Of a DNA stretch of 34,111 bases, positions 2,162 to 27,878 are shown one piece after another. Numbering within the stretch: position 1 is the first letter of the stretch; each line of letters opens with the position of its first letter. The translations under genes and the position numbers were made by a program. Source of the stretch: Chrysochromulina tobinii (taxonomy: Eukaryota); the NCBI GenBank assembly GCA_001275005.1, contig JWZX01003124.1, forward strand, positions 1 through 34,111, written 5' to 3'. A model generated the notes under the pieces. It ran no database searches. It saw nothing but the letters and a program-made list of their open reading frames with translations, and had not been told where the DNA came from.

Positions 2162-4221
2162 TCAGGCGGCCGAGACGCGCGTCGTGCGACGCTCAGGCAT
2201 CGCTTGGTACATGGCGATCGCCTGTGCCGCCTCTGCCTCCTCGAGGTCCTCCTCATCTCCATCGTCGTGGACCGCGCGGAAGAGGGCCGGCTCGCCGTCA
2301 GTTTCGTCGGCCGGGAGCCATTTGGAGATGCGTGCGAGCACGGTGCGCTTGCCGAAGCGACGCGCGATCTTGGCGCCTACGAACTTGTGCCCATCTGGAC
2401 GCCACTCGGCTCGCTCCATAGCGAGCCTGCCAAAACAGGCAAGCCCCTCCTCCACCTCGGCTTCCACCAAGTCCTCCTCGTCCGCGTCGTCGTGCACGGC
2501 CCGGAACAGAGCCGGCTCCGTCTCGGGGTTCTCCCCGGCCGGCAGCCACTTGATGATCGTCGCGAGCGCGAACTGCACTCCCCCGCGCGCACCGTCAAAC
2601 GGGCGCGCCACTCGGCTGCCCACGAACCGATGGCCTTCGAGACGCCACACCTCGGGTGCGCCGGCCGAGGGGCCGACGCCTTCGGCGGCCGCGGCCTCGC
2701 TGAAGGCCGTGAGCGCCGTCTCGAGCTCGTTCTGCTCGAGCTCCTCCCTGTCGCCGTCGTCGTGTCGCACCAAAAAGAGCGAAGGATCGCCTTCGGAAAG
2801 GTCAGGCGGCAGCCACTTGACCACGGTACCGTACACGCGCGCTCCCTCGAAGAGACGACACACGCGCTGCTGCAGCGCGCGGTGGCCGACCTGCGGCCAG
2901 AGAGGCGATCAGAGAGGACCATGAGGCAATCCGAAGGCAATCCGAAGGCAATCCGAAGGCGCTTCGATGACAAGCAGCGCACCTTGAGCCAGCGCGTCTC
3001 CCTCGGTGCCAGGGTTTCATAGTCCCCACGCGCGTCCGCAACCTCCGCCTCCTCGAGGTCCTCCTCATCTCCATCGTCATGAATGGCGCGGAAGAGGGCC
3101 GGCGCGCCGCTTGCCTTGCATCCAGGCAGCCAGCGCACGATCGTGCCGAGCACCAGCCGTCGACCGAAGAGTCGAGCGACCCTTCTGCCAATATACACGT
3201 GGCCCGTGGCAAGCATCCGATCAGCCGCGAGCGGCGCGGGCTTCGCCTTCTTCGGCGCCGGCTTCGCCTCGTCCGCCCCCTCGCCCCGCCGATACGGCTT
3301 GAGAAGGCCATACTCACGATTGAGGTCCGTCTCGTCCGGCTCGCAATAGTTGATGCCGATCGACGAGGCGCGGCGCGAGCCGGGTTTGACGATCTCATGA
3401 GAGCATGGGCCGAGGTGGTGGTTCGGGAACATGCACCCGGGCGAGTCGCACATGCCCGGCACGTGCCAAAACACCTCGACGCCCTCGGCCACAGCAGCGG
3501 CTGCCAGGCGGCCTCCGCGGGAGCTACCTTGAGAGCTACCGCGCAGCCGAGCGCGTTGTTCGACGGCCTTCTCGAGGGCGGCGCGCCGCTGCAGGGCGCT
3601 CTCGAGGCTCGCATCATCCGCGGTGCGTAGCGAGCTCTTGCGCGCCTTGACCTGCTCGAGCACCGCCGCCGTCGCCGCATCCCGCTCGGCTCTTGCCTCC
3701 TGCCGTGCCCGCTTCTGCTGCTCGGCGCGCTCGGCGCGCAGCGCTCGCATCTCCGCGTCGCGCTCGCGTCGCGCCTGCGCGACGAGCTGCTGGCGCGCCT
3801 TGCGCTCGGCCTCGCGCTTCACGCGCTCTCGCGCCGCGCGCTCGCGCTCGCGCTGCTCGATGGCCTCGCGCTTCAAGCGCTGTTTCCGCTGCACCTCACG
3901 GCGCGCCTCCGCGGCCGCCTCCTCGGCCTTGCGCCGATCAGCCTCCTCCTTCGCCTGCTTGGCGGCCATGTCGGCGAGAATCCTGGAGCGCTCCGACTCC
4001 GGGCGCGCAGGCACGCTCATCGGCCTCGCCGCGCGCTTCGGCGGCTTCCTCCGGCCATTATTTTGCTGCTTGGTGCCCGACGAGCCCGCCTCTTTCATGC
4101 TCGCCACAGCGTCGAGCAAGCCGAGGCTCTCGAGCACGGCGCGGTTCTGGCTGATCGTCGCGAGCCGCTGCGCCTCGTATGCCGACATCGGCGGCGTGTT
4201 TGCTGCTCTGGTCGCTGGCAT
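2162..4221 (-). CDS. Putative chromatin-associated protein with four tandem PTM/DIR17-like Tudor repeats (~655 aa, 2 exons)
   Basis: Exons 4221-2983 and 2890-2162; GT-AG intron 2982-2891 joins WLK|VGHRALQQRVCRLF in frame and restores a repeat unit. Four copies of GHxxxxxxxxRxF...xxWLP...LFxxxHDDGDxExLE; N-terminal YExxRxxxIxxNxxxLxxLGL motif, coiled coil, CxxxxCxxxxHHxGxC motif. Start codon inferred. Confidence 0.85.
2891..2982 (-). repeat. Intron built from 10-nt tandem repeats (GCCTTCGGAT-type, ~3 copies)
   Basis: Plus strand gaggcaatcc/gaaggcaatcc repeats at 2923-2960. Confidence 0.85.
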
Positions 4222-5544: not shown

Positions 5545-6171
5545 TCAGTCCCCGTCTTTGCGTCCACGGGGAGTCTGCTGGCTGCGCGGCCGCCCCCCCC
5601 CGATACCCGCTGGCCTCTGTGGCGGGGCGCCCGCTGCGGCGCCTCTCTCCGGCGTGGCGCGCAAAGGGCGCCGCGGGGGTGCGGAGGCGGTCGGTAGAGC
5701 TCGAGGGCTGCCGATCGAGGTGAGGCGCCCACGACGGCGCTCTGACGCGGTGCCGCCCGGCGGCACGGGGATCCTGGCGCCCGCGACGGCGCCATTCGCG
5801 TCGTCCTGAGCACCGGCGGCCGAGGGCGCAGCGACGGGCGGCGCCTCGCCTGGCAGAGCGCCCGTCTCCTCCTTGGAGGTCCGATTGCTGCGCGTGCGGC
5901 GCTCGGGCGAGAGAGAGGCTCGCCTATTGGCCTCGGCCACCCCGAGCTCGGCGCGCAGCACGCTGTACTCGCGTAGCTTGAAGGCCATGCGAGCCTCTAG
6001 CGAGCCGCTCGAGGCGTCCGTGTCGATCGGCACGAGAAGGGCCCTTTTCTGCGCATCCGTCAGCTTGGGATCCGAGTATTGCCAACTGGCAGAGGCCGGT
6101 GCGCGCACGGCGGCGCTGCTGCTGCTGCCAATGGACTGGCCGTTGTCCGGCTCCGGCTCTTCGGTGTACTC

Positions 6172-6204
<33 letters not shown>

Positions 6205-9200
6205 CTCCGCCTCGAGCCACCTGGCCTCCTGTGCCGCTGTGGCCGCAGTCTCGGCGCGCAGGGTCGCCTGAAAGGCCTTGAGCTCGTGGGCGCTGTATTT
6301 GGCGTCTGGTGAGATCTCGGGCAGCTGGGTGGGCGAGATCGCCCCTCCATTCCGTTGCAGCTCGTGCAATCTCAGGTGCGGGATGCGGTTGTTGCGGGCG
6401 CGTGCACTGGGCTCCTCCAGGCTAGGGGCGCGCTCCGGACGCAGCTGGGCCATCTGGTCAGCATCCCAGCCCATCGACAGAATGAGCGCGCACAGCGCAC
6501 TCTCGTTGACGGAGGCATACATGACGGCCTCGACCATCTTGAGGTCACTCATCGAGAGCTTCACCTGCATGCAATCAGGGAGGGCCATCAGCATGCAATC
6601 AGCATGCACTCAGGTTCGACCATCTTGAGGGCACTCATCGAGAGCTTCGCCTTCTTGAGCTGGCCAGATGAGAGAGGCAATCAGAGATCATCAGAGGCAT
6701 CGTCATCGAGAGCTTCACCTTCTTGAGCTGGCCAGATGGCCCAGCGGCGGCATCTACCCCCTTGGCGCCGCCGCTGGTGGCCTGCGCTTTGCTCGGACTG
6801 ATGGTCGAGCTCAGACGACGTCTAGTCGGCCCAGAGGCCGATTGCGCGTCTCCGTCGACGACGCCTGTGCCCTCTTCGTCGCCGTCGCTCAGTTTGATAC
6901 CGAGCAGCTCCGCGAGCGCCGGTGTGATGAACGTCATGGCACTGCCGTCCGATGGCACGCTCAGGCTCGCCTTGCCGTCGCTAGCCCCCGACGACTTTTG
7001 GCGTCGGAGCTGGGGCCTCGAAGATCGCGAAGATTCGACTGGGAGCGTCTGCTCGAGTGCCAAGGACGCGGCCGTCGACGCAAAGGAAGCGACCGTTGAC
7101 TGCGAGCAATTCGATCGGGCGCGCTTCGGGGGATTCGGACGCAGCGGCCCCATCACTGAGCCGCCATCGGAGCGAGTGTCGCGACAGTCTGCGCCACCGC
7201 CGCCGCCGCCGCCATCGCTGCTGCTACCTGTAGCTTGGTCGAGCGAATGGCCCTCCCGCTTCAAGTCACCGAGCTCGATGCCCGCAAAGCGCGCCGTCTT
7301 CTCGGGAGCGGTCTCGCGCGCGCGCAGCTTCTCCATCGCTCGGCGCACCTCGAGCAGCTGCCGAGTGCGCTGAAGCACCGCACCGCGCACCTTGTCGGGC
7401 AACTGGTTGCACACGACGGGATTCGAGAGCACTTCGGCCGAGGCCTCGAGGGAGGCGACAGCCCCGAGGGCGACCCCCTCAACGCGCTCGACCCCCCGGC
7501 GCGCCTCGCGGCAGCGCGCCTCTGCCGCCGAGATGCGCGCTGCGACCGCGTCGAGGGTTTCGTCAAACTCGGCGCGTGCCGCATCGCCCGTCTCGCGGAC
7601 GCTCGCCAAATCGAGCTGCAGCCGTATGATCTTCTCCTTGGACCGTTCCATGAGGGCCACGCGGTCCCTCTCAACCCCCTCAAACGTCTCTCGTGCTTCG
7701 AGCTGGTCCATAATGTACTGCAGCGCGTGCGCCATGCGCGCGCTGAAGGGCGCCGCATGAGCTGCGGGCGCGTCGCACGCGAGCGCAATCTTCTCAAACG
7801 CGGTGCGAAGACTAATCGAGCCGCGCTCGTGCTCGAGCTTCTCTGCTCGGGCGATGGTCACTGCCGCTCCCGAATCGCGCAGCGCTGAGTCCACGCGCAC
7901 GCTCGCGTCATAGTAGTTTTGTTCCGCCCGCCTTGGCCGCCCTCGCTACCTCGCCCGTCACGTTGAACTCGAGCGCTTCGTTATCCAAGGCCACTACCTG
8001 TCCGAGATCATCGCGCTGCCGCTCGGTCGTCGCCTCGCCGACCATGATGTTCCCATTTCCAGCGCCGACCAGTTCCATCGCCCTCTTACGGCGCGCTGAG
8101 CCGGCTTCGTGCAATTGGGCCGCGCGCTCCTTGCGCAGCCGCGCGTGCTCCTCGGACTGAGCTCTCAAGCGCACGTGCTCCGCCATCCGCCGCGCCTTCC
8201 ATTGCTCCGCGGACGCGAGCGCGAGCTCACTGTCCACGATCGTCTTTTCGAGCCGTTCGTTGACCTCGAGTATGCTTGAGCGGAGGTACGTGAGCTTTCG
8301 AGGGTAGTGCGGCCGATACTGCCGCAGACGCTCCTCCATGAAGATGAGTGTCGCACAGTCCGACTCCACACTCATGAGCTCTTCCAAGGCCACCTCGCAC
8401 CGCGCCTCGGCCTCTCCTCGTTCGTCGACGGTGGCCGACAGGTCGACGCCTGATGAGAGAGGCACTCAGAGGTCATCAGAGGTCATCCGAGGCCATCAGA
8501 GATCATCCGAGGTCATCCGAGGTCATCAGTGGCACTTGTCATCTCACCCATGCCAAAGAGACGTTCCTTGAGGGCCTCGAACTCGCGCTCCAAAAGCCTC
8601 TTCTCCGCCTGGCGCTCGTCGGCGAGCTCACGCAGCGCGTCGAGGCGCCGTTTGGTCGCAAGGAGCTTCTTCTCTTCGGTGGCGGCTAGCTCGTCCAAGG
8701 CTGCGCGCACCTGCTCGTCGCCGGTCTGGTTGGCTTCGCGCCAGGAGGCCATCACGACCGAATACGGCTTCGGCGGCGCCAGCGACAGCGGTTGGCGCGC
8801 CGCCGATGCCGACGCCGATGACGGCGCACCGAAGGGCGTGCCATTCACTGTGGTCGCGCCGGCGCCGCGGGCGCCGCCCTCAGCCTCAGCCCGCGAGTAC
8901 TGCAGCGTCGCACTCGATGTCAAATCTGACGCCGAGCACAGGCTCATCGTGAGCGTGTCGGTGAGCTCCTTCGCATCTGTGGGATCGCGCTGGCCCCGAC
9001 GAAGCTTTGCCGGCGTCGGCAGCGCGCTGCTGGCCGTGCTGCCGGCCAAGTTCCGATAGATAGAGGACTCGCAAAGCGATGGACGTGCGGTGAGCGCCGA
9101 GAGCGGACGCGATATCGCGATGGGCTTCTGCAAGCGCGAAGTCGCCGGCCGCGAGGCCAGGCTATTGGCGGTGAGCCGGGTGCGCGGAGACGTCATGTGC

Positions 9201-9403
9201 ACGTCGTCGGCCGCGAGCACGGTGGGTGGCCTGAGCCGCTCCGCGCCTGCGCGCACGAGTGAGGCGTAACGTGTCATGTGTAGCGCATGGGCAGCTCGGT
9301 CTTGGGTTGCATCCGGACCAGCCAGCCCAGCCGCTTCCTGTTTTTCTCGGGCAAGAAGTCGCAGGGCGTTGATGAGCGCCATGTCGTTCTGGTCGGTCAA
9401 CAT
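5545..9403 (-). CDS. Large coiled-coil/low-complexity protein of unknown function (~1200 aa, 3 exons, one apparent frameshift)
   Basis: Exons 9403-8548, 8449-6719, 6564-5545; both introns are GT-AG and phase compatible. One base must be removed near 7927-7929 to read AAKAAEQNYYDASVRVD. Start codon inferred. Confidence 0.7.
6565..6718 (-). repeat. Intron containing duplicated flanking exon sequence and decamer modules
   Basis: 6703-6718 = 6549-6564; 6651-6670 = 6719-6738; 6616-6650 matches 6530-6564 at 33/35. Confidence 0.9.
8450..8547 (-). repeat. Intron built from ~7 decamer repeats (CTCKGATGAC-type), ending CCTCTCTCATCAG
   Basis: Plus strand gaggtcatca/gaggtcatcc array at 8459-8530. Confidence 0.9.
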
Positions 9404-9845
9404 CTTTACGTTCCTGGCTTCCACCCATTCACATGAATAAAAAAGGCGTCAGGGACAGCGGGCGGCATTCAAAATGCTTGCGCGCCCGCTCAAAATGCTT
9501 GCGCAAAACTCTGAATCTAGACGGAAAGAAAAACGCGCCTACACCCTTGACCCTCGAGCCGTCAACCTCTCAACCAAATGTGGTGTGTAGAGGATTCACA
9601 CACGTGCCGAAGGCGCCAAGCTGCCGAGCAACCAGCTGCCCCCGGTCCACCTGCCCCGTTCCCTGCATCACACGACATGATCTTGCGCACATATGCACAG
9701 TGCCCCGTTGCATGCAAGTGCCCCGTTGCATGCATGAGCCAATTGTTGGAACCTACCCCCTGTCCCTTCGTGCAGTCGACAGCTCAAGCCCGCACGCCGG
9801 CGTGACCTCAACATATCTTAGCGAGTCCGGCCTCGTCGGCTGCCC

Positions 9846-10680
9846 TTACAGCACCTCCACAACGACTTCCGACTTGGCGAGTGGTGGCGCGGGCGTGAGC
9901 TTCTCGAGGATGCGTGTATGATTGAGGGAGGCGAGTGCGCCGCCGAGAAGCTGCGCAATCAGGTAGAGCCACGCGTTGTGCAGATCGCAGCCGAAGACGA
10001 GGGCAGGGCCGATGAAGCGCGCCGGGTTGAAGAAACCGCCCGTAATGTGGCCAGCGCCGCCAACGACTACAACGATCGCGAGACCTGCAGCGTGGCATCG
10101 AATCCCGGAGCGTCATAAGGGATGTGAGAAGGGATCGGGTGGTCCGGCGGCGTTTGGTCACTTGCCACGTACCGATGGCAAACGGGGCGTGGTCGCCGAA
10201 GCCAGGCTTGGCGACTGCCACGGCGTGGACGGTGGCCACCAGCACGAACGTTCCGAGCATCTCGAGCACGAACACAGAGCCACGTACGCGGTCGGGCAGC
10301 GTCCGGTGGCAGCCGGGCGGAATAAGGTATGGCATCTTGTATTCTCCCCAGTTGTCGAGGCCTGCTGCGTCCAGGTTTTCATCAAGATCAATGAAAGCGG
10401 CGAGAAAGGCCGCGGCAATGGAGCCCGATATCTGCGCGACAGCGTAGAGCCCAGCCTTGAACGGCGGCAGAATACCAGTCAGGCAGAGCCCCGCCGACAC
10501 CGCCGGATTCAAGTTTCCGCCCGAATACTTTGCGGTCATGAAGATGCACACCGTGAGGACCACGCCGTTGACGGGACCAACCTGCTCGGTACCACCGAAG
10601 AATTGGAAGATGAAGGTCCCGAGGAATTCAGCCCAGAGGGCAATGACGAGCTCGCGGCTCAAATCGAAGGAGATTTGCAT
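9846..10680 (-). CDS. Aquaporin / MIP family channel (248 aa, 2 exons)
   Basis: Exons 10680-10173 and 10084-9846; intron 10172-10085 (GTACGT...CTGCAG). AEFLGTF, SGGNLNPAVS, EMLGTFVLV, and after splicing GGFFNPARFIGPA and WLYLIAQLLGG; both NPA boxes present. Confidence 0.95.
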
Positions 10681-14167: not shown

Positions 14168-15143
14168 TCAACGGAACTCGAGCTTCGGCAGCACCTCTGT
14201 TTCGTCGAGACCATGGCGCCGTGCGTAGACTGCGAGATTGTCGAAGAACTCAGCGCACGACTTGAGAGCGAGGTTCGCCGCCTTGAGGTCGTTGTCATCC
14301 TGTATCAACAACAACGCCTCAGCAAAGGGCCATCAGAGGTTCATCAGAAGTGCATCGGAGGTCTATCAGAGGTGCATCACAGGTGCCTTCACAGGTGCCT
14401 TCACACACAGGTGCCTTCACACCTGGACCTTGATCCGCACGAGCTTGCGCAGTGCGTCGGCTCCCATGGCCAATTCCGCCCACTCCGCATCGCCGACCCC
14501 GCACGCTACGGACGCCGCCGTCGACTCGGCACGCCCGTCGGCGAAGGCGAGGAGCGCCTGGAAGATGGTACCCTTGAGCTGATGACTGCTCGCCGCCTGC
14601 GCCGCCACGCCCTCGTCAAAGCGCAGCGACGCCAGCACGCGACGGCGCGCCTCGGAGAGCGCATCTGGGGTGCGCAGCTGCACGCGCAGCAAGCACTCCA
14701 CCTCGACCCATCGCGACTGCATCATCGCCATGAGCTCCTCATCGCCCACATTGTCGGCGGGCGGCGGCGCCTCCTCCTCATCGCCGCGCCCGTCTTCATC
14801 GAAGGTGAAGGCGCTGCGCAGGGAGCCGTCCCGGCCTGGGCTCATGCCGCTGTGGCTGCGCCACGTCTTGCGCATCCTATCCGCCGCCGTGCGATAGGAT
14901 TCTGCTAAGTGCTTGGGCACCCATCCGTCGCCATCCTTCGCCGCAAAATCTTTCAGAGCGGCGCGCCGCTTCTCGTAGTCGCGTGAGATCTCGATAAACC
15001 TGTGGCCGGTGGAGGAAGGCGTGCGGCGGTCGGCTGTGTATCACGTGTTCAAGGCACGCGTGAGAGCGGACTCACCAAGCCTCTCCTCCCTTTTTCGTCA
15101 CTGAGCCCGGAGGCTTGGGCTCACTGGCCGAATCGTCAGCCAT
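14168..15143 (-). CDS. Hypothetical protein (258 aa, 3 exons)
   Basis: Exons 15143-15076, 14999-14423, 14299-14168. Introns GTGAGT...CCACAG (phase 2) and GTGTGA...ATACAG (phase 0) give one continuous frame MADDSASEPK...EVLPKLEFR. Confidence 0.75.
14300..14422 (-). repeat. Intron built from degenerate 10-12 nt repeats
   Basis: Plus strand catcagaggt / cacaggtgcctt arrays. Confidence 0.8.
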
Positions 15144-15821: not shown

Positions 15822-17983
15822 TCACTCAGCCTCGCCGTCGCCCAAGCTGACCTCAGCCTCGCCGTCGCCCAAGCTGACGCTCGGCGGTGTGCTCGGTGTC
15901 TTCGCCGCTGCGAGCGCCTCCTTTGCCACCTCTGTGTTGTCGCGCGACGTGAGCTGCTGCTCACTCCCCAAGGCACCGGTGCCATCTCGGTGCAATCTCG
16001 GTGCCATCTCGCTCCCCAAGGCACCCGGGGAGCGCAGCACGACGTGGCCCTCGGAAAAGGCCAGCGACGTCTCAGCGTGCTGCCAGTTGGGCGGAGCCGA
16101 CGTTGCCTCGCGCGCCGTCGTCGCCGTCGCCGTCGCCGCCGCTGAAGCCCCTGCCGCGCCGCGCCATCCGCCCAAGACGTCGCCGGCGCCGCGACTTGCC
16201 CCGACGCTGCCGCCGCACGAGTAGCTCGTGGCGCCCAAGGCGGCGCTCGCCGCATGAGCGTACGCGCTCGCCACGGCGCTTGGCGTGGAGGTCCTTCCAA
16301 ACGAGGCAGGCGGATTGCCTAATATGCTCGCGGAGTGCCCAAAGGGGCTGCTCGCGAAGCTTGCGGTGCTGCGCGGCGCCGTGACGGGCATCCCCAGACC
16401 CGCGCCCAACGCGGCGCGCGCGCCCGCCGCGCTCGGATACGCGCTCGGCGCCGTGTTGGGCGCGTCCCGCGCCGTGCTGGGCGACTCCCACGCGCGCAGG
16501 GGCGAGGTGCGTAGGTCGCCGAGGGCCCATTGGAGCTCGCGCTTCTCTGCGTGCAGCGCATTGAGCGCGCGCGCGGCGCGGCTCCGTTCACGCAACGCCT
16601 CGTCGCGCTGGCGCACCTGATGAAGGAGGCAATTCGAGGCACTCAGCGGCACTCAGCGGCAATCATGAGCCATCATGAGTGGTCCTCGTCAAACGCACCA
16701 GCGGCTGCCAGCGCTCCTCGGCCACCGCGGCGCGGACTTGCTCTTCAAGGAGCTTCTCCTCCGACCGCCGCATCAAGAGCTCTATCCGCAACCGTTCGGC
16801 ACGCTCGAGCTCGAACCGCTCCGCCGTCGCGCGCCGCTGCTGCTCGAGCTCCTTGGCCTGCAGCTCCGCGTACTCGCATCGGGTGCGCAGCTCGCCTGTC
16901 TCCGAGCGGAGCCGCTCGGCTGCATAACGCGCCGCCTCGAGCGCCGCCACGCCTTCCGCCTCAAGCGCCGCCACACGCACCTGCAGCAGCGCGACCGTCT
17001 CCTGCGCCAAGCTGCGCGCCTTGGCCATCTCCGCGGCGCGCGCGTCCGCCGCCTCGGCGCGCAGTCTCGTCCGATCTCGTTCCTCGGCCACGTGGCCGAT
17101 GGAGCTCCTCGGACCGTTTGACGGATTCGACGAGACCCTTGGCCTCAGAGGCGGTGGCTGCGAGTCGCTCGCTGAGCGCCGCGCGCTCGCGCTGCGCGGC
17201 CTCGCGCTCGCGCTGCGCGGCCTCGCGCTCGGACTCCATCTCGCGCTGCCGAGCCTCGGCGGCGGCCGCGCGCTCGCGTTCTCGCGCGAGCTCGTCCCGG
17301 AGCTCGCGCTGCATCGCGAGGCTCGAGGCTTCGAGGCGCCGCGCCTCGTTCTGTGACGAGTGGAGCATCTCGGTGGCTCGAATGAGGGCCTCGCTCGAGC
17401 GACGCGCCTCGGCCTCGGCCACCTTGGACTGCTCGCGGATCGAGCGCATCTCCGCCTCCGCGGCCGCGCGCGCCTCGTTGGCGGCGTTCGCACGCTCCTT
17501 GGCGGCCGCCGCCTCGGCGGATGCCCGGTCGCGCTCCTCGCACCGGAGCTGCTCCTGCCGCGCCGCAACCTCGCGCACCTGCGCCAGCTCGACGCGTACA
17601 GCGGCCAGCAGCTCCTCGCGCTCGCGTACGTCGCTCTGCAGCTGACGGCTCAAGGCATTCTCTTCGTCGATGCGCGAGAAGAGCCGGCTCTTCTCCGCGT
17701 GCAGCGACTGCAGCTCCCTGCGCTCAATCAGCACGCGAGGCGCGCTCTCATTCGGGTCGTGCTTTCGCGTGGCGGCCTTCACCACCGCGGCCAAGCTAGG
17801 CTTAGGCTTCGCCACGGCGGTGGCCGTCGGCTTGGACGCCGTCGGGCTGCTCTGGGCCGCCGCCGGAGGCGAAGACTTGCCGTCCTGGACCGCTGGTGGC
17901 GAAGTCAGAATGGCAGGCTTCGCCGCTGCTGTGGCCTTCGAATTTGCAGGCTTCGTCGCTGCTGTGGCCTTCTTGCTCGACAT
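15822..17983 (-). CDS. Coiled-coil protein of unknown function (~690 aa, 2 exons, one apparent frameshift)
   Basis: Exons 17983-16699 and 16616-15822; intron GTGCGT...CATCAG, phase 0. Removing one base at 17101-17102 gives SEELIGHVAEERDR and a continuous E/R/A-rich coiled coil. Confidence 0.72.
15825..15878 (-). repeat. Perfect 27-nt tandem duplication just before the stop codon (VSLGDGEAE x2)
   Basis: ctcagcctcgccgtcgcccaagctgac at 15825 and 15852. Confidence 0.92.
16617..16698 (-). repeat. Intron built from decamer repeats (TGAGTGCCGC-type), ending CCTCCTTCATCAG
   Basis: Plus strand ggcactcagc x2 plus variants. Confidence 0.85.
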
Positions 17984-26291: not shown

Positions 26292-27878
26292 ATGTCGGCG
26301 CGCTTCGTATTGTCTGCACTCCTACTGTCGGGAGTGCGCGTCCACGCGCTGTCAACCGGTTCCGCTACCTCTGCTGCTCGACCGACCCTTGCGCCGCGCT
26401 GCCGTCGGAGCGTCGCGGTCGCCAGCCCGCCACGGAGTGCTCTCGCCCAGCACAGCGAGGACGACAGCGAGGACGACAGCGAGCCGCTCCCTGCTGACAT
26501 CGCAGTTGCGCTGCCGCGGCCATCGTCGCTGCTGCGCGTGCTCTGGCGCTTCTCGCGACCGCATACTATGCTCGGCTCCGCGGTGTGCATTCCTGCGCTC
26601 ACGTTGTACGCGGCGCCGGCGGGAGCGGCGCTGTCGCTGCCACTGCTCCAAGGCGTGCTGTACGCCTTGCCCGCCGCGCTGCTCATGAACGTGTACATCA
26701 CCGGCCTCAACCAGCTGCTCGACATCGAGATTGACCGCATCAACAAACCCGACCTGCCGCTGGCCTCGGGCGAGCTCAGTCCGTTCGCCGGCAGCCTGCT
26801 CGTGGCTGGAGCTCTCGTCCTCTCCCTCGGCCTCGGCTGGTGGCATCCCTGGCTCTCTACGAACGCGCTGCGCATCACGCTGCTGGGCTCGGCGGTGCTT
26901 GGCACGCTCTACTCGGCGCCGCCCTTCCGTCTCAAGCGCTTTCCGCTCCTCGCTAGCGCCTGCATCATCACCGTCCGGTGCATGCATGCGCGTGTGCCAG
27001 CCAGTCCTCGGCCGATGGATCCCCTTGCATGCATGCATGCGCGTGTGCCAGCCAGTCCTCGGCCGATGGATCCCCTTGCACGCGCCCTCCCGGCTCGCAC
27101 TCACACTCGCCCCCACGCCCCATGCCGCCCGCAGCGGTGCGCTGGTCAATTGGGGCTTCTGCGCACACGCGATCTCCGTCGCCGCGGCCGCGGCAGGCTC
27201 GCTGCCGTCGGCGGCGCTCGGCTGGTCGTCGCTGCCGCTTCGCTGCTGGGCGCCCGTTGGCTTCTTCAGCCTCTTCGGCCTCGTGATCGCGTTGTTGAAA
27301 GACGTGCCCGACATCAAGGGCGACCGACAGTTTGGAATCCGCTCCTTCTCGGTGCGAGCGCGCCACTGGTTGCCATGGATTGCCGCTGATTGCCGCTGAG
27401 TGGATCTGATGGCCTCCTTCATCAGAGATGGATTGCCGCTGATTGCCGCTGAGTGGATCTGATGGCCTCCTTCATCAGAGATGGATTGCCGGTGAGTGCT
27501 ACCGAGTGCTGCCGAGTGCCACTGATTGCCACTGATTGCCATTCGATGACCACTGAGGGCCACTGATGGCCACTCGATGACCTCCCTCATCAGGTGCGCA
27601 TCGGGGCCGCGGCGGTTCTGCGGCTGGGACTCAATCTGCTCACGACGACGCTCGCGCTAACCGGAGTGGCTCTCGGCGCGGCCGCGACGCTCGCGCCCAC
27701 CGCGGCGCTCGCCGTGCGTCGCCTCGCCGTCAGCCTCGCCTGCGCCGCCTCCGTCGTCGCCATCCGCCGGCGTGCCGCGAGCGTGTCGCCCGATGACCCC
27801 CCAGCCGTCTACGCCCTGTACATGGAGCTCTGGAAGTACTTTTATGGCGCGTACCTGTGCCTGCCGTTCGCCCGTTGA
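26292..27878 (+). CDS. HPT: Homogentisate prenyltransferase, probably phytyltransferase (HPT/VTE2-like, UbiA superfamily), plastid-targeted (395 aa, 3 exons)
   Basis: Exons 26292-26977, 27135-27351, 27594-27878. WRFSRPHT, GLNQLLDIEIDRINKPDLPLASGE, PPFRLKRFP, spliced TVR|GALVNWG, KDVPDIKGD, YMELWKYFY; signal peptide followed by an S/R/A-rich transit peptide. HPT versus HST is not certain. Confidence 0.9.
26979..27080 (+). repeat. Perfect 51-nt tandem duplication in HPT intron 1
   Basis: tgcatgcatgcgcgtgtgccagccagtcctcggccgatggatccccttgca at 26979 and 27030. Confidence 0.92.
27352..27593 (+). repeat. HPT intron 2: decamer repeats (TGATTGCCRC-type) with an internal 53-nt duplication, ending CCTCCCTCATCAG
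   Basis: 53-nt units start at 27375 and 27428, with a partial third at 27481. Confidence 0.9.

What the first reader, a model, noticed from the sequence alone, without database searches (positions are those of the whole stretch)
6530..6738. An intron that contains a 55-nt copy of its own spliced exon-exon junction
Seen (minus strand): exon A, then the first 16 nt of exon B, a decamer module, the last 20 nt of exon A fused to the first 35 nt of exon B (6616-6670, 53/55 identical to the spliced mRNA), a second decamer module ending GCATGCAG, then exon B. One of the two mismatches turns the internal AG|GT into AG|GC, weakening the competing donor. The first module joins the exon copy through a CATC microhomology and matches the 3' end of the neighbouring intron 8450-8547 at 29/31. 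Inference: a fossil of the pre-intron allele captured by iterative template switching (polymerase-theta-like repair or an RNA/cDNA template), i.e. intron birth recorded in the sequence.
Basis: partly seen in the sequence, partly recalled or inferred. Interest (0 to 1): 0.85.

Follow-up and report, generated by a model that had tools for sequence, protein, structure and literature searches.

The report
Introns copied between unrelated genes
A spliced intron in a haptophyte alga holds a 55-base copy of its own exon junction, likely left by two overlapping rounds of DNA copying, and an intron in an unrelated gene carries a piece of it, which suggests that these introns likely spread from gene to gene by short-match copying rather than as ordinary transposons.

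Summary
Observation confirmed. The 154-nt GT-AG intron (6718-6565, minus strand) is spliced in RNA contigs of two runs, is present in DNA contigs and a sister strain, and holds a 53/55 copy of its own junction. The gene matches a Chrysochromulina tobinii protein.

The structure is not unique. Of 117 distinct decamer-array intron ends, 67 have an upstream 9-60-nt copy of the downstream exon start (null 2/583), and 9 hold an inner junction copy. The 55-mer is best read as two overlapping duplications (35 and 36 nt); no cDNA is needed. The scan noted the single-duplication footprint before, on other DNA (e1-2577349).

New here is a likely donor-recipient pair. A spliced intron in an unrelated filamin-repeat gene (L047) holds 85 nt 87% identical to this intron's 3' half, including 17 nt of this gene's exon. 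The two downstream exons start with the same 15 nt. This points to microhomology-primed copying between unrelated genes.

Enzyme, template (DNA or pre-mRNA) and event order are inferred. The neighbouring intron is not shown to be module 1's source. The intron is old, shared with an 85-89% relative. No intronless allele was found.

The parts
6719..6738 (-). last 20 nt of exon A (template of the inner copy)
   Evidence: RNA join
6565..6718 (-). 154-nt GT-AG intron, phase 0
   Evidence: removal restores the frame; 154-nt skip in RNA contigs of X12 and X14
6703..6718 (-). outer 16-nt copy of exon B start; supplies the GT donor in use
   Evidence: 16/16 match
6671..6702 (-). module 1: decamer array plus intron 3'-end motif cut short before its AG; continues through the CATC microhomology at 6667-6670
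6651..6670 (-). inner copy of the last 20 nt of exon A, 20/20
6616..6650 (-). inner copy of the first 35 nt of exon B, 33/35; changes at 6649 (GT to GC) and 6631; inferred 5' end of the earlier single-round intron
   Evidence: L047 has the exon-type base at both places
6565..6615 (-). module 2: 10/11-mer array ending in GCATGCAG; supplies the acceptor
6530..6564 (-). first 35 nt of exon B; its first 15 nt are identical to the exon start after the L047 intron
8450..8547 (-). neighbouring decamer-array intron of the same gene; possible local template of module 1 (29/31, shares a rare 3' variant)
   Evidence: its splicing was not shown in the listed rows
5545..9448 (-). host gene region, protein of no Pfam family; start codon not fixed; the window has one extra base near 7931
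   Evidence: for the extra base

Best explanation
The intron is likely the product of two overlapping rounds of short-match (microhomology-primed) copying, in which a DNA end in this gene likely borrowed the tail of another intron as template and then returned upstream of where it left. Round 1 (inferred): the strand left at exon B +35, copied an array plus acceptor (module 2) and returned at the GT of exon B +1. This gave an 86-nt intron whose donor comes from the duplicated exon and whose acceptor comes from the copied tail, with no change to the mRNA. Round 2 (inferred): the strand left at +16, copied module 1 and returned early at CATC, 20 nt inside exon A, duplicating 36 nt across the donor. 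The old exon-intron boundary became internal and looks like a spliced junction because the intron already began with exon B sequence. The inner GT later changed to GC (the order rests on L047 keeping GT; selection for the change is untested). The round-1 intron likely also served as donor for the intron of an unrelated gene (L047), paired through a 14-15-nt match at both ends. Shown: structure, splicing, family footprint, shared sequence with L047. Inferred: strand switching, order, direction of copying. Untested: enzyme, and DNA versus pre-mRNA template.
For: Family footprint: 67 of 117 distinct terminal ends have an upstream copy of the exon B start, 9-60 nt long; null 2 of 583; 42 mismatches in 1389 nt. 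Microhomology at the copy/array joint: 4 nt or more in 15 of 44 testable joints against 45 of 880 in the null. Junction copies: 11 of 117 flagged, null 4 of 578; 9 kept after inspection, several rejoining exon A at 1-4-nt microhomologies. Donor-recipient pair: L047 9793-9876 is 87% identical over 85 columns to window 6651-6567. It includes 17 nt that match this gene's exon B at 16/17 and L047's own exon at about 4/17 (my count on the strings). The two exon starts share 15 nt, the only such pair of 6786 (next best 10 nt), and these are the only 2 of 61 module-2 ends with the GGCCCTCCCT variant. L047's gene has Filamin domains, ours has no Pfam hit, and one search showed no homology beyond intron and simple repeats. 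The L047 intron is spliced in X12 and X17 and occurs in a second assembly (L105). Module-1 ends less than 3 kb apart are more alike (mean 27.0 of 35, 21 pairs) than ends from different loci (24.2, 1503 pairs).
Against: 50 of 117 ends show no exon copy at score 9 or more. 18 of 44 testable joints show no microhomology and 15 of 59 were untestable. Only one cross-locus pair was found among 59 introns. No intronless allele was found, so no insertion was compared with an empty site. Exon A ends in AG in 32 of 67 (background 20 of 355), but selection for donor strength explains that as well as return-site homology does. The sample was picked by a module-2 motif and covers 845 kb with redundancy; the whole genome was not held. 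The near-pair test uses non-independent pairs. The listed DNA contigs of X7 do not show the middle of the L047 intron (table cut), so that stretch rests on two assemblies. A staggered cut plus reverse transcription gives the same geometry.
Confidence: 0.62

Rival explanations
1. One repair event with iterative template switching made both modules and the junction copy at once. The template source is the same as in the best explanation; only the timing differs.
For: The 85-89% relative already shows both a module-1-like start and a module-2 end (proteins P0007, P0002). Multi-round introns are common (13 of 67 have two or more copies). A single event also avoids an unspliceable intermediate.
Against: Single-round introns are the majority (54 of 67). 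The outer copy is no longer than the inner in 9 of 9, as a later duplication requires. Several cases (L051, L073, L079) look like plain tandem amplifications of the boundary unit.
Confidence: 0.15
2. Target-primed reverse transcription: LINE or Penelope-like machinery nicks both strands 9-60 nt apart and copies unspliced pre-mRNA or a short non-autonomous RNA. The exon copies are then long target-site duplications and the array is a 3' tail read antisense.
For: Variable-length duplications are typical of non-LTR elements (PMC9977147 passages). Priming on a 15-nt match to the donor pre-mRNA fits the L047 pair. Module, array and duplication are in the order expected of an antisense insertion.
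Against: No shared element body beyond the acceptor was evident: groups sharing downstream sequence had at most 5 members in the visible part (output cut; members not all checked). Nearby introns are more alike, which fits local DNA templates better. Arrays differ widely between copies.
Confidence: 0.17
3. A cDNA of the spliced mRNA was patched into the existing intron, so the 55-mer is a true copy of the mRNA junction.
For: The 55-mer equals the spliced junction at 53/55, and the intron is old.
Against: Every junction copy found lies in an intron that also starts with an exon-B copy; the search for copies without one gave only 2 array-to-array matches. The lengths fit two overlapping duplications. 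L047 suggests that the 35-nt copy and module 2 travelled as one unit.
Confidence: 0.04
4. The triplication is an assembly artefact.
For: The modules are high-copy repeats and only contigs, no raw or long reads, could be laid.
Against: A separate contig set spans it without substitution. A 99.0% sister copy has it (L034). The full-length members listed from a 98-member protein cluster read through the same intron sequence. The copies carry fixed differences.
Confidence: 0.01

Closest known systems
Introners / introner-like elements (Gozashti et al. 2022, PMC9860276; Roy et al. 2020, bioRxiv 10.1101/2020.10.14.339549, classes 4/5 and 6/8/10)
   Same: Many related introns; the acceptor is carried by the inserted sequence, the donor comes from a duplication of the target, and the mRNA is unchanged.
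   Different: Duplications are 9-60 nt and variable, not a fixed 3-9 nt. No terminal inverted repeats. Members share only a low-complexity 3' tail. The Chrysochromulina sp. introner of their Fig. 2C has a 4-bp duplication and the reverse splice-site arrangement. C. tobinii is in their genome list, and they filtered out low-complexity families.
[quoted passage not shown]
   Same: Direct repeats flank an inserted sequence; no transposase is needed.
   Different: The insert comes from other introns' 3' tails and brings a ready acceptor; repeats are long; the process recurs at the same site and across many loci.
Intron transfer (PMC3443670)
   Same: An existing intron is copied into another gene by homology.
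   Different: Described for paralogues. Here the genes are unrelated, share only 15 nt, and the copy duplicates the target.
Tandem genomic duplication of AGGT (PMC3443670)
   Same: Duplicated exon sequence supplies the donor and stays inside the intron.
   Different: The acceptor comes from a foreign module; exon A ends in AG in only 32 of 67.
Replitron-1 'fuzzy ends' (PMC10288648) and Dualen/Penelope-like long duplications (PMC9977147)
   Same: Variable-length target duplications; sequence carried over from the donor's flank.
   Different: Those are kilobase or enzyme-coding elements with defined ends and are not described as making introns in the passages read.

Membership tests
Spliceosomal intron | GT-AG ends, removed from the RNA, frame restored | tested here: met
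Introner (Gozashti 2022) | many related introns at unrelated sites | tested here: met
   117 distinct terminal ends in the fetched loci plus the window
Introner (Gozashti 2022) | similarity not due to short repetitive motifs; members alike along their length | tested here: not met
   shared part is a decamer array and 3' motif; the 5' part is locus-specific; such families were filtered out
DNA-transposon-type introner | fixed short target-site duplication (3-9 bp) | tested here: not met
   9-60 nt, variable; copies shorter than 9 nt were not scored
DNA-transposon-type introner | terminal inverted repeats | tested here: not met
   no inverted pair at the ends of this intron; not tested across the family
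DNA-transposon-type introner | autonomous transposase partner | not testable with these tools
   no whole genome held
Intron gain by break repair | direct repeats flanking the insert, above background | tested here: met
   67 of 117 against 2 of 583
Intron gain by break repair | intronless orthologue showing one copy of the repeat | tested here: inconclusive
   all relatives found that cover the site appear to carry the intron
Polymerase-theta templated insertion | microhomology at both joints and dependence on the enzyme | tested here: inconclusive
   microhomology enriched and CATC at the return joint; enzyme not examined
Intron transfer between paralogues | donor and recipient genes are homologous | tested here: not met
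Tandem genomic duplication | both splice sites come from the duplicated AGGT | tested here: not met
   acceptor in use lies in module 2; the inner AAG site gives a stop
Non-LTR retroelement insertion | shared element body with variable 5' truncation and a reverse-transcriptase partner | tested here: inconclusive
   no shared body seen in the visible part; partner not testable

The most novel reading that the evidence does not exclude
In this alga, introns are their own spreading templates. A gene end that finds a short match in an existing intron copies its array and acceptor and returns upstream, making a new, cleanly spliced intron in an unrelated gene with no transposase or element body. 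Thousands of introns may have arisen this way, and donor-to-recipient chains can be read from the exon fragments they carry.
Probability: 0.45. Interest if true: 0.9.

Novelty: new variant of a known kind. Interest (0 to 1): 0.75.

Why it matters
How new spliceosomal introns arise is a long-standing question, and most gained introns have no identifiable source (PMC3443670 passages). Here a likely source intron, a likely recipient in an unrelated gene and the short match that joins them are all readable. The route combines features of three separately listed mechanisms: duplication, repair and transfer. The largest introner survey removed low-complexity families by design, so this class may be missed elsewhere. 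The alga is cultured and has many near-identical wild relatives in metagenomes, so donor-recipient networks, polymorphic gains and the enzyme can be tested. The junction copy itself is a by-product and matters less than the copying route it exposes.

Tried and rejected
No whole genome is held, so the genome-wide survey was replaced by one motif scan of metagenome contigs: 126 stretches reported, 123 loci, 845 kb, from 19 of 64 parts of the collection. Three module motifs in viral contigs and one in prokaryote genomes gave 0 matches.

Rows dropped before counting: 263 raw sites; 26 lacked flanks; 12 were dropped for GC under 0.5 or no array; 225 collapsed to 147 distinct; 30 with module sequence just downstream were set aside; 117 remained. 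Of 11 flagged junction copies, 2 were dropped: L011 (the copy belongs to an upstream intron) and L014 (the 'exon' is itself array).

The any-position search for module 1 printed nothing because my seed was off by one, so only the comparison of intron ends counts. The neighbour-as-donor claim was not accepted as shown (ties at 29/31). The idea that L047's exon base +5 was converted to the donor's base is possible but not separable from a mutation in the intron copy; it is not used as evidence. L047 as paralogue was rejected. Alignment A1 used an offset range and covers only part of exon A.

Rare splice forms could not be tested: only contigs were available. Depths were not used as copy numbers.

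Literature: ten searches found no description of this family or of copying between unrelated genes; one more timed out. The library lacks most subscription papers, including the 2019 Chrysochromulina genome paper that I recall. The Gozashti supplement was cut when stored and only two places per term were read; bioRxiv supplements are closed.

Full report
Observation. On the minus strand the intron runs 6718 to 6565 (154 nt, GT..AG). It reads: 16 nt identical to the start of exon B; module 1 (6671-6702); 20 nt identical to the end of exon A; 35 nt matching the start of exon B at 33/35; module 2 (6565-6615). The 55-mer matches the spliced junction at 53/55. Only removal of the whole 154 nt keeps the frame open. 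RNA contigs of X12 and X14 skip exactly 154 nt here, and X13 has no listed piece across the site. A DNA contig of X5 spans 6220-8484 without substitution. L034, a 99.0% copy from another assembly, has the same intron. Mis-assembly is very unlikely.

Organism and age. The downstream exon matches, at 100% over 35% of the query, a protein that NCBI names Ctob_004909 of Chrysochromulina tobinii. The gene has no Pfam family. Gene calls that read from exon A into the intron give the same read-through peptide in the near-identical members listed from a 98-member cluster, including the codon that needs the inner GC. A relative at 85-89% protein identity reads into a copy of the exon B start followed by a stop (P0007), and its downstream frame begins in a module-2-like stretch (P0002). 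So both ends of the intron likely predate that split. This is inferred from proteins; the relative's DNA was not seen. No intronless form was found.

The family. No genome was held, so I scanned metagenome contigs with the module-2 end motif and fetched 123 loci, 845 kb. After the filters listed under Tried and rejected, 117 distinct terminal intron ends remained (61 module-2 type, 56 module-1 type). The next exon starts with GT in 94 and GC in 11. In 67 of 117 a copy of that exon start lies within 400 nt upstream, 9-60 nt long; with exons swapped between sites the rate is 2 of 583. The copy is typically followed by a decamer array and the acceptor. These boundaries are inferred from sequence; only the focal intron and L047 were checked against RNA. 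The joint between copy and array has 4 nt or more of microhomology in 15 of 44 testable cases against 45 of 880 in the null; 18 of 44 have none.

Junction copies recur. A scan for an inner exon-A-end plus exon-B-start flagged 11 of 117 (null 4 of 578). Nine stood on inspection: L029, L034 (this locus), L040, L047, two in L051, L073, L079, L089. In all nine the outer exon-B copy is no longer than the last inner one (two ties; one L051 case is complex). Six have no AG at the inner junction, so that round could not have been spliced alone. No junction copy was found in an intron lacking an outer exon-B copy. The simplest reading is that an intron already starting with 35 nt of exon B suffered a second duplication of 36 nt across its donor, with module 1 between the copies and a return at CATC. 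The 55-mer is the union of the two duplications. It does equal the pre-intron sequence, but no mRNA template is needed.

A likely donor-recipient pair. L047 (and L105, a second assembly) has a 458-nt intron in a gene with Filamin repeats on both sides, spliced in X12 and X17. Its stretch 9793-9876 is 87% identical over 85 columns to window 6651-6567, that is the inner exon-B copy plus module 2. Its first 19 nt match L047's own exon at 18/19. The next 17 nt match this window's exon B at 16/17 and L047's exon at about 4/17 (my counts). The two downstream exons begin with the same 15 nt, the only such pair of 6786 (next best 10), and these two are the only 2 of 61 module-2 ends with one rare variant. 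L047 has the exon-type base at both places where the window's inner copy has changed. I infer that an ancestor of this intron was copied into the L047 gene, with entry and exit through the 14-15-nt match, before the GT-to-GC change. The reverse direction would need this gene's conserved coding sequence to come from another gene's intron. It is the only cross-locus pair among the 59 introns compared.

The neighbour. Module 1 matches intron 8450-8547 at 29/31, but so do two unrelated introns among 69 ends. The neighbour does share a 3' variant seen in 4 of 69, and module-1 ends within 3 kb are more alike than ends from different loci (27.0 against 24.2 of 35). A local donor is plausible and unproven.

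Mechanism. Best supported (0.62): microhomology-primed template switching on DNA, in two rounds here. Rivals: one iterative event (0.15); target-primed reverse transcription of pre-mRNA by non-LTR machinery, which gives the same geometry (0.17); cDNA patch (0.04); artefact (0.01). The first three share the core claim of homology-guided copying of intron tails. No enzyme was examined.

Comparison with what is known. It works like an introner that carries the acceptor and takes the donor from the target duplication, but it fails membership of the DNA-transposon type: variable long duplications, no inverted ends, low-complexity body. Gozashti et al. list C. tobinii among the genomes surveyed ('tobin' occurs once in the stored, cut supplement) and removed families rich in short repeats. 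It resembles repair-linked gain, intron transfer and tandem duplication in part, but transfer is described between paralogues. What I saw of each paper: Gozashti preprint, passages and section 7; PMC9860276, passages and two supplement rows; Roy 2020, part 1 of 4; PMC3443670, PMC8469720, PMC10288648, PMC9977147 and PMC4580454, passages. Ten searches found no account of this family. A rough extrapolation from 56 module-1 ends in 845 kb to a 59-Mb genome (size) gives thousands, but the sample is biased.

Verdict. The feature is real. Interest 0.75.

Noticed in passing
window 7931 (minus strand): The window has one extra base that breaks the host gene's frame. It is absent from the X5 contig, from L034 and from the read-through protein P0006, so it is likely an assembly error. 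The NCBI model P0003 skips much of exon A.
   Followed up: partly
window 9171: G is read as A at full depth in X5, X12 and X13: a strain difference or a window error.
   Followed up: no
L017 minus strand, end at 3438 of the reverse complement: Seven tandem 68-nt units of exon copy plus module; 5 of the 6 inner acceptors read AC in place of AG. This parallels the GT-to-GC change here, though one change may have been amplified.
   Followed up: no
L073 minus strand, end at 2121 of the reverse complement: An intron with at least seven tandem copies of its own exon junction, each about 71-81 nt.
   Followed up: partly
L011, L014, L098: A third shared intron module beginning GTGCTCACCAC appears in several introns; L011 has a junction copy in an intron with that module.
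   Followed up: no
window 27375-27582 (+), 14331-14422 (-), around 16638-16665 (-): Further decamer-array introns; the first has a 53-nt tandem duplication that repeats an internal acceptor motif.
   Followed up: no
L002 minus strand: An intron begins with a 60-nt copy of the downstream exon (1 mismatch), the longest duplication in the sample.
   Followed up: no
L047 9393-9428: One RNA contig of X14 skips 34 nt with non-canonical ends inside a repetitive exon stretch; possibly an artefact.
   Followed up: no
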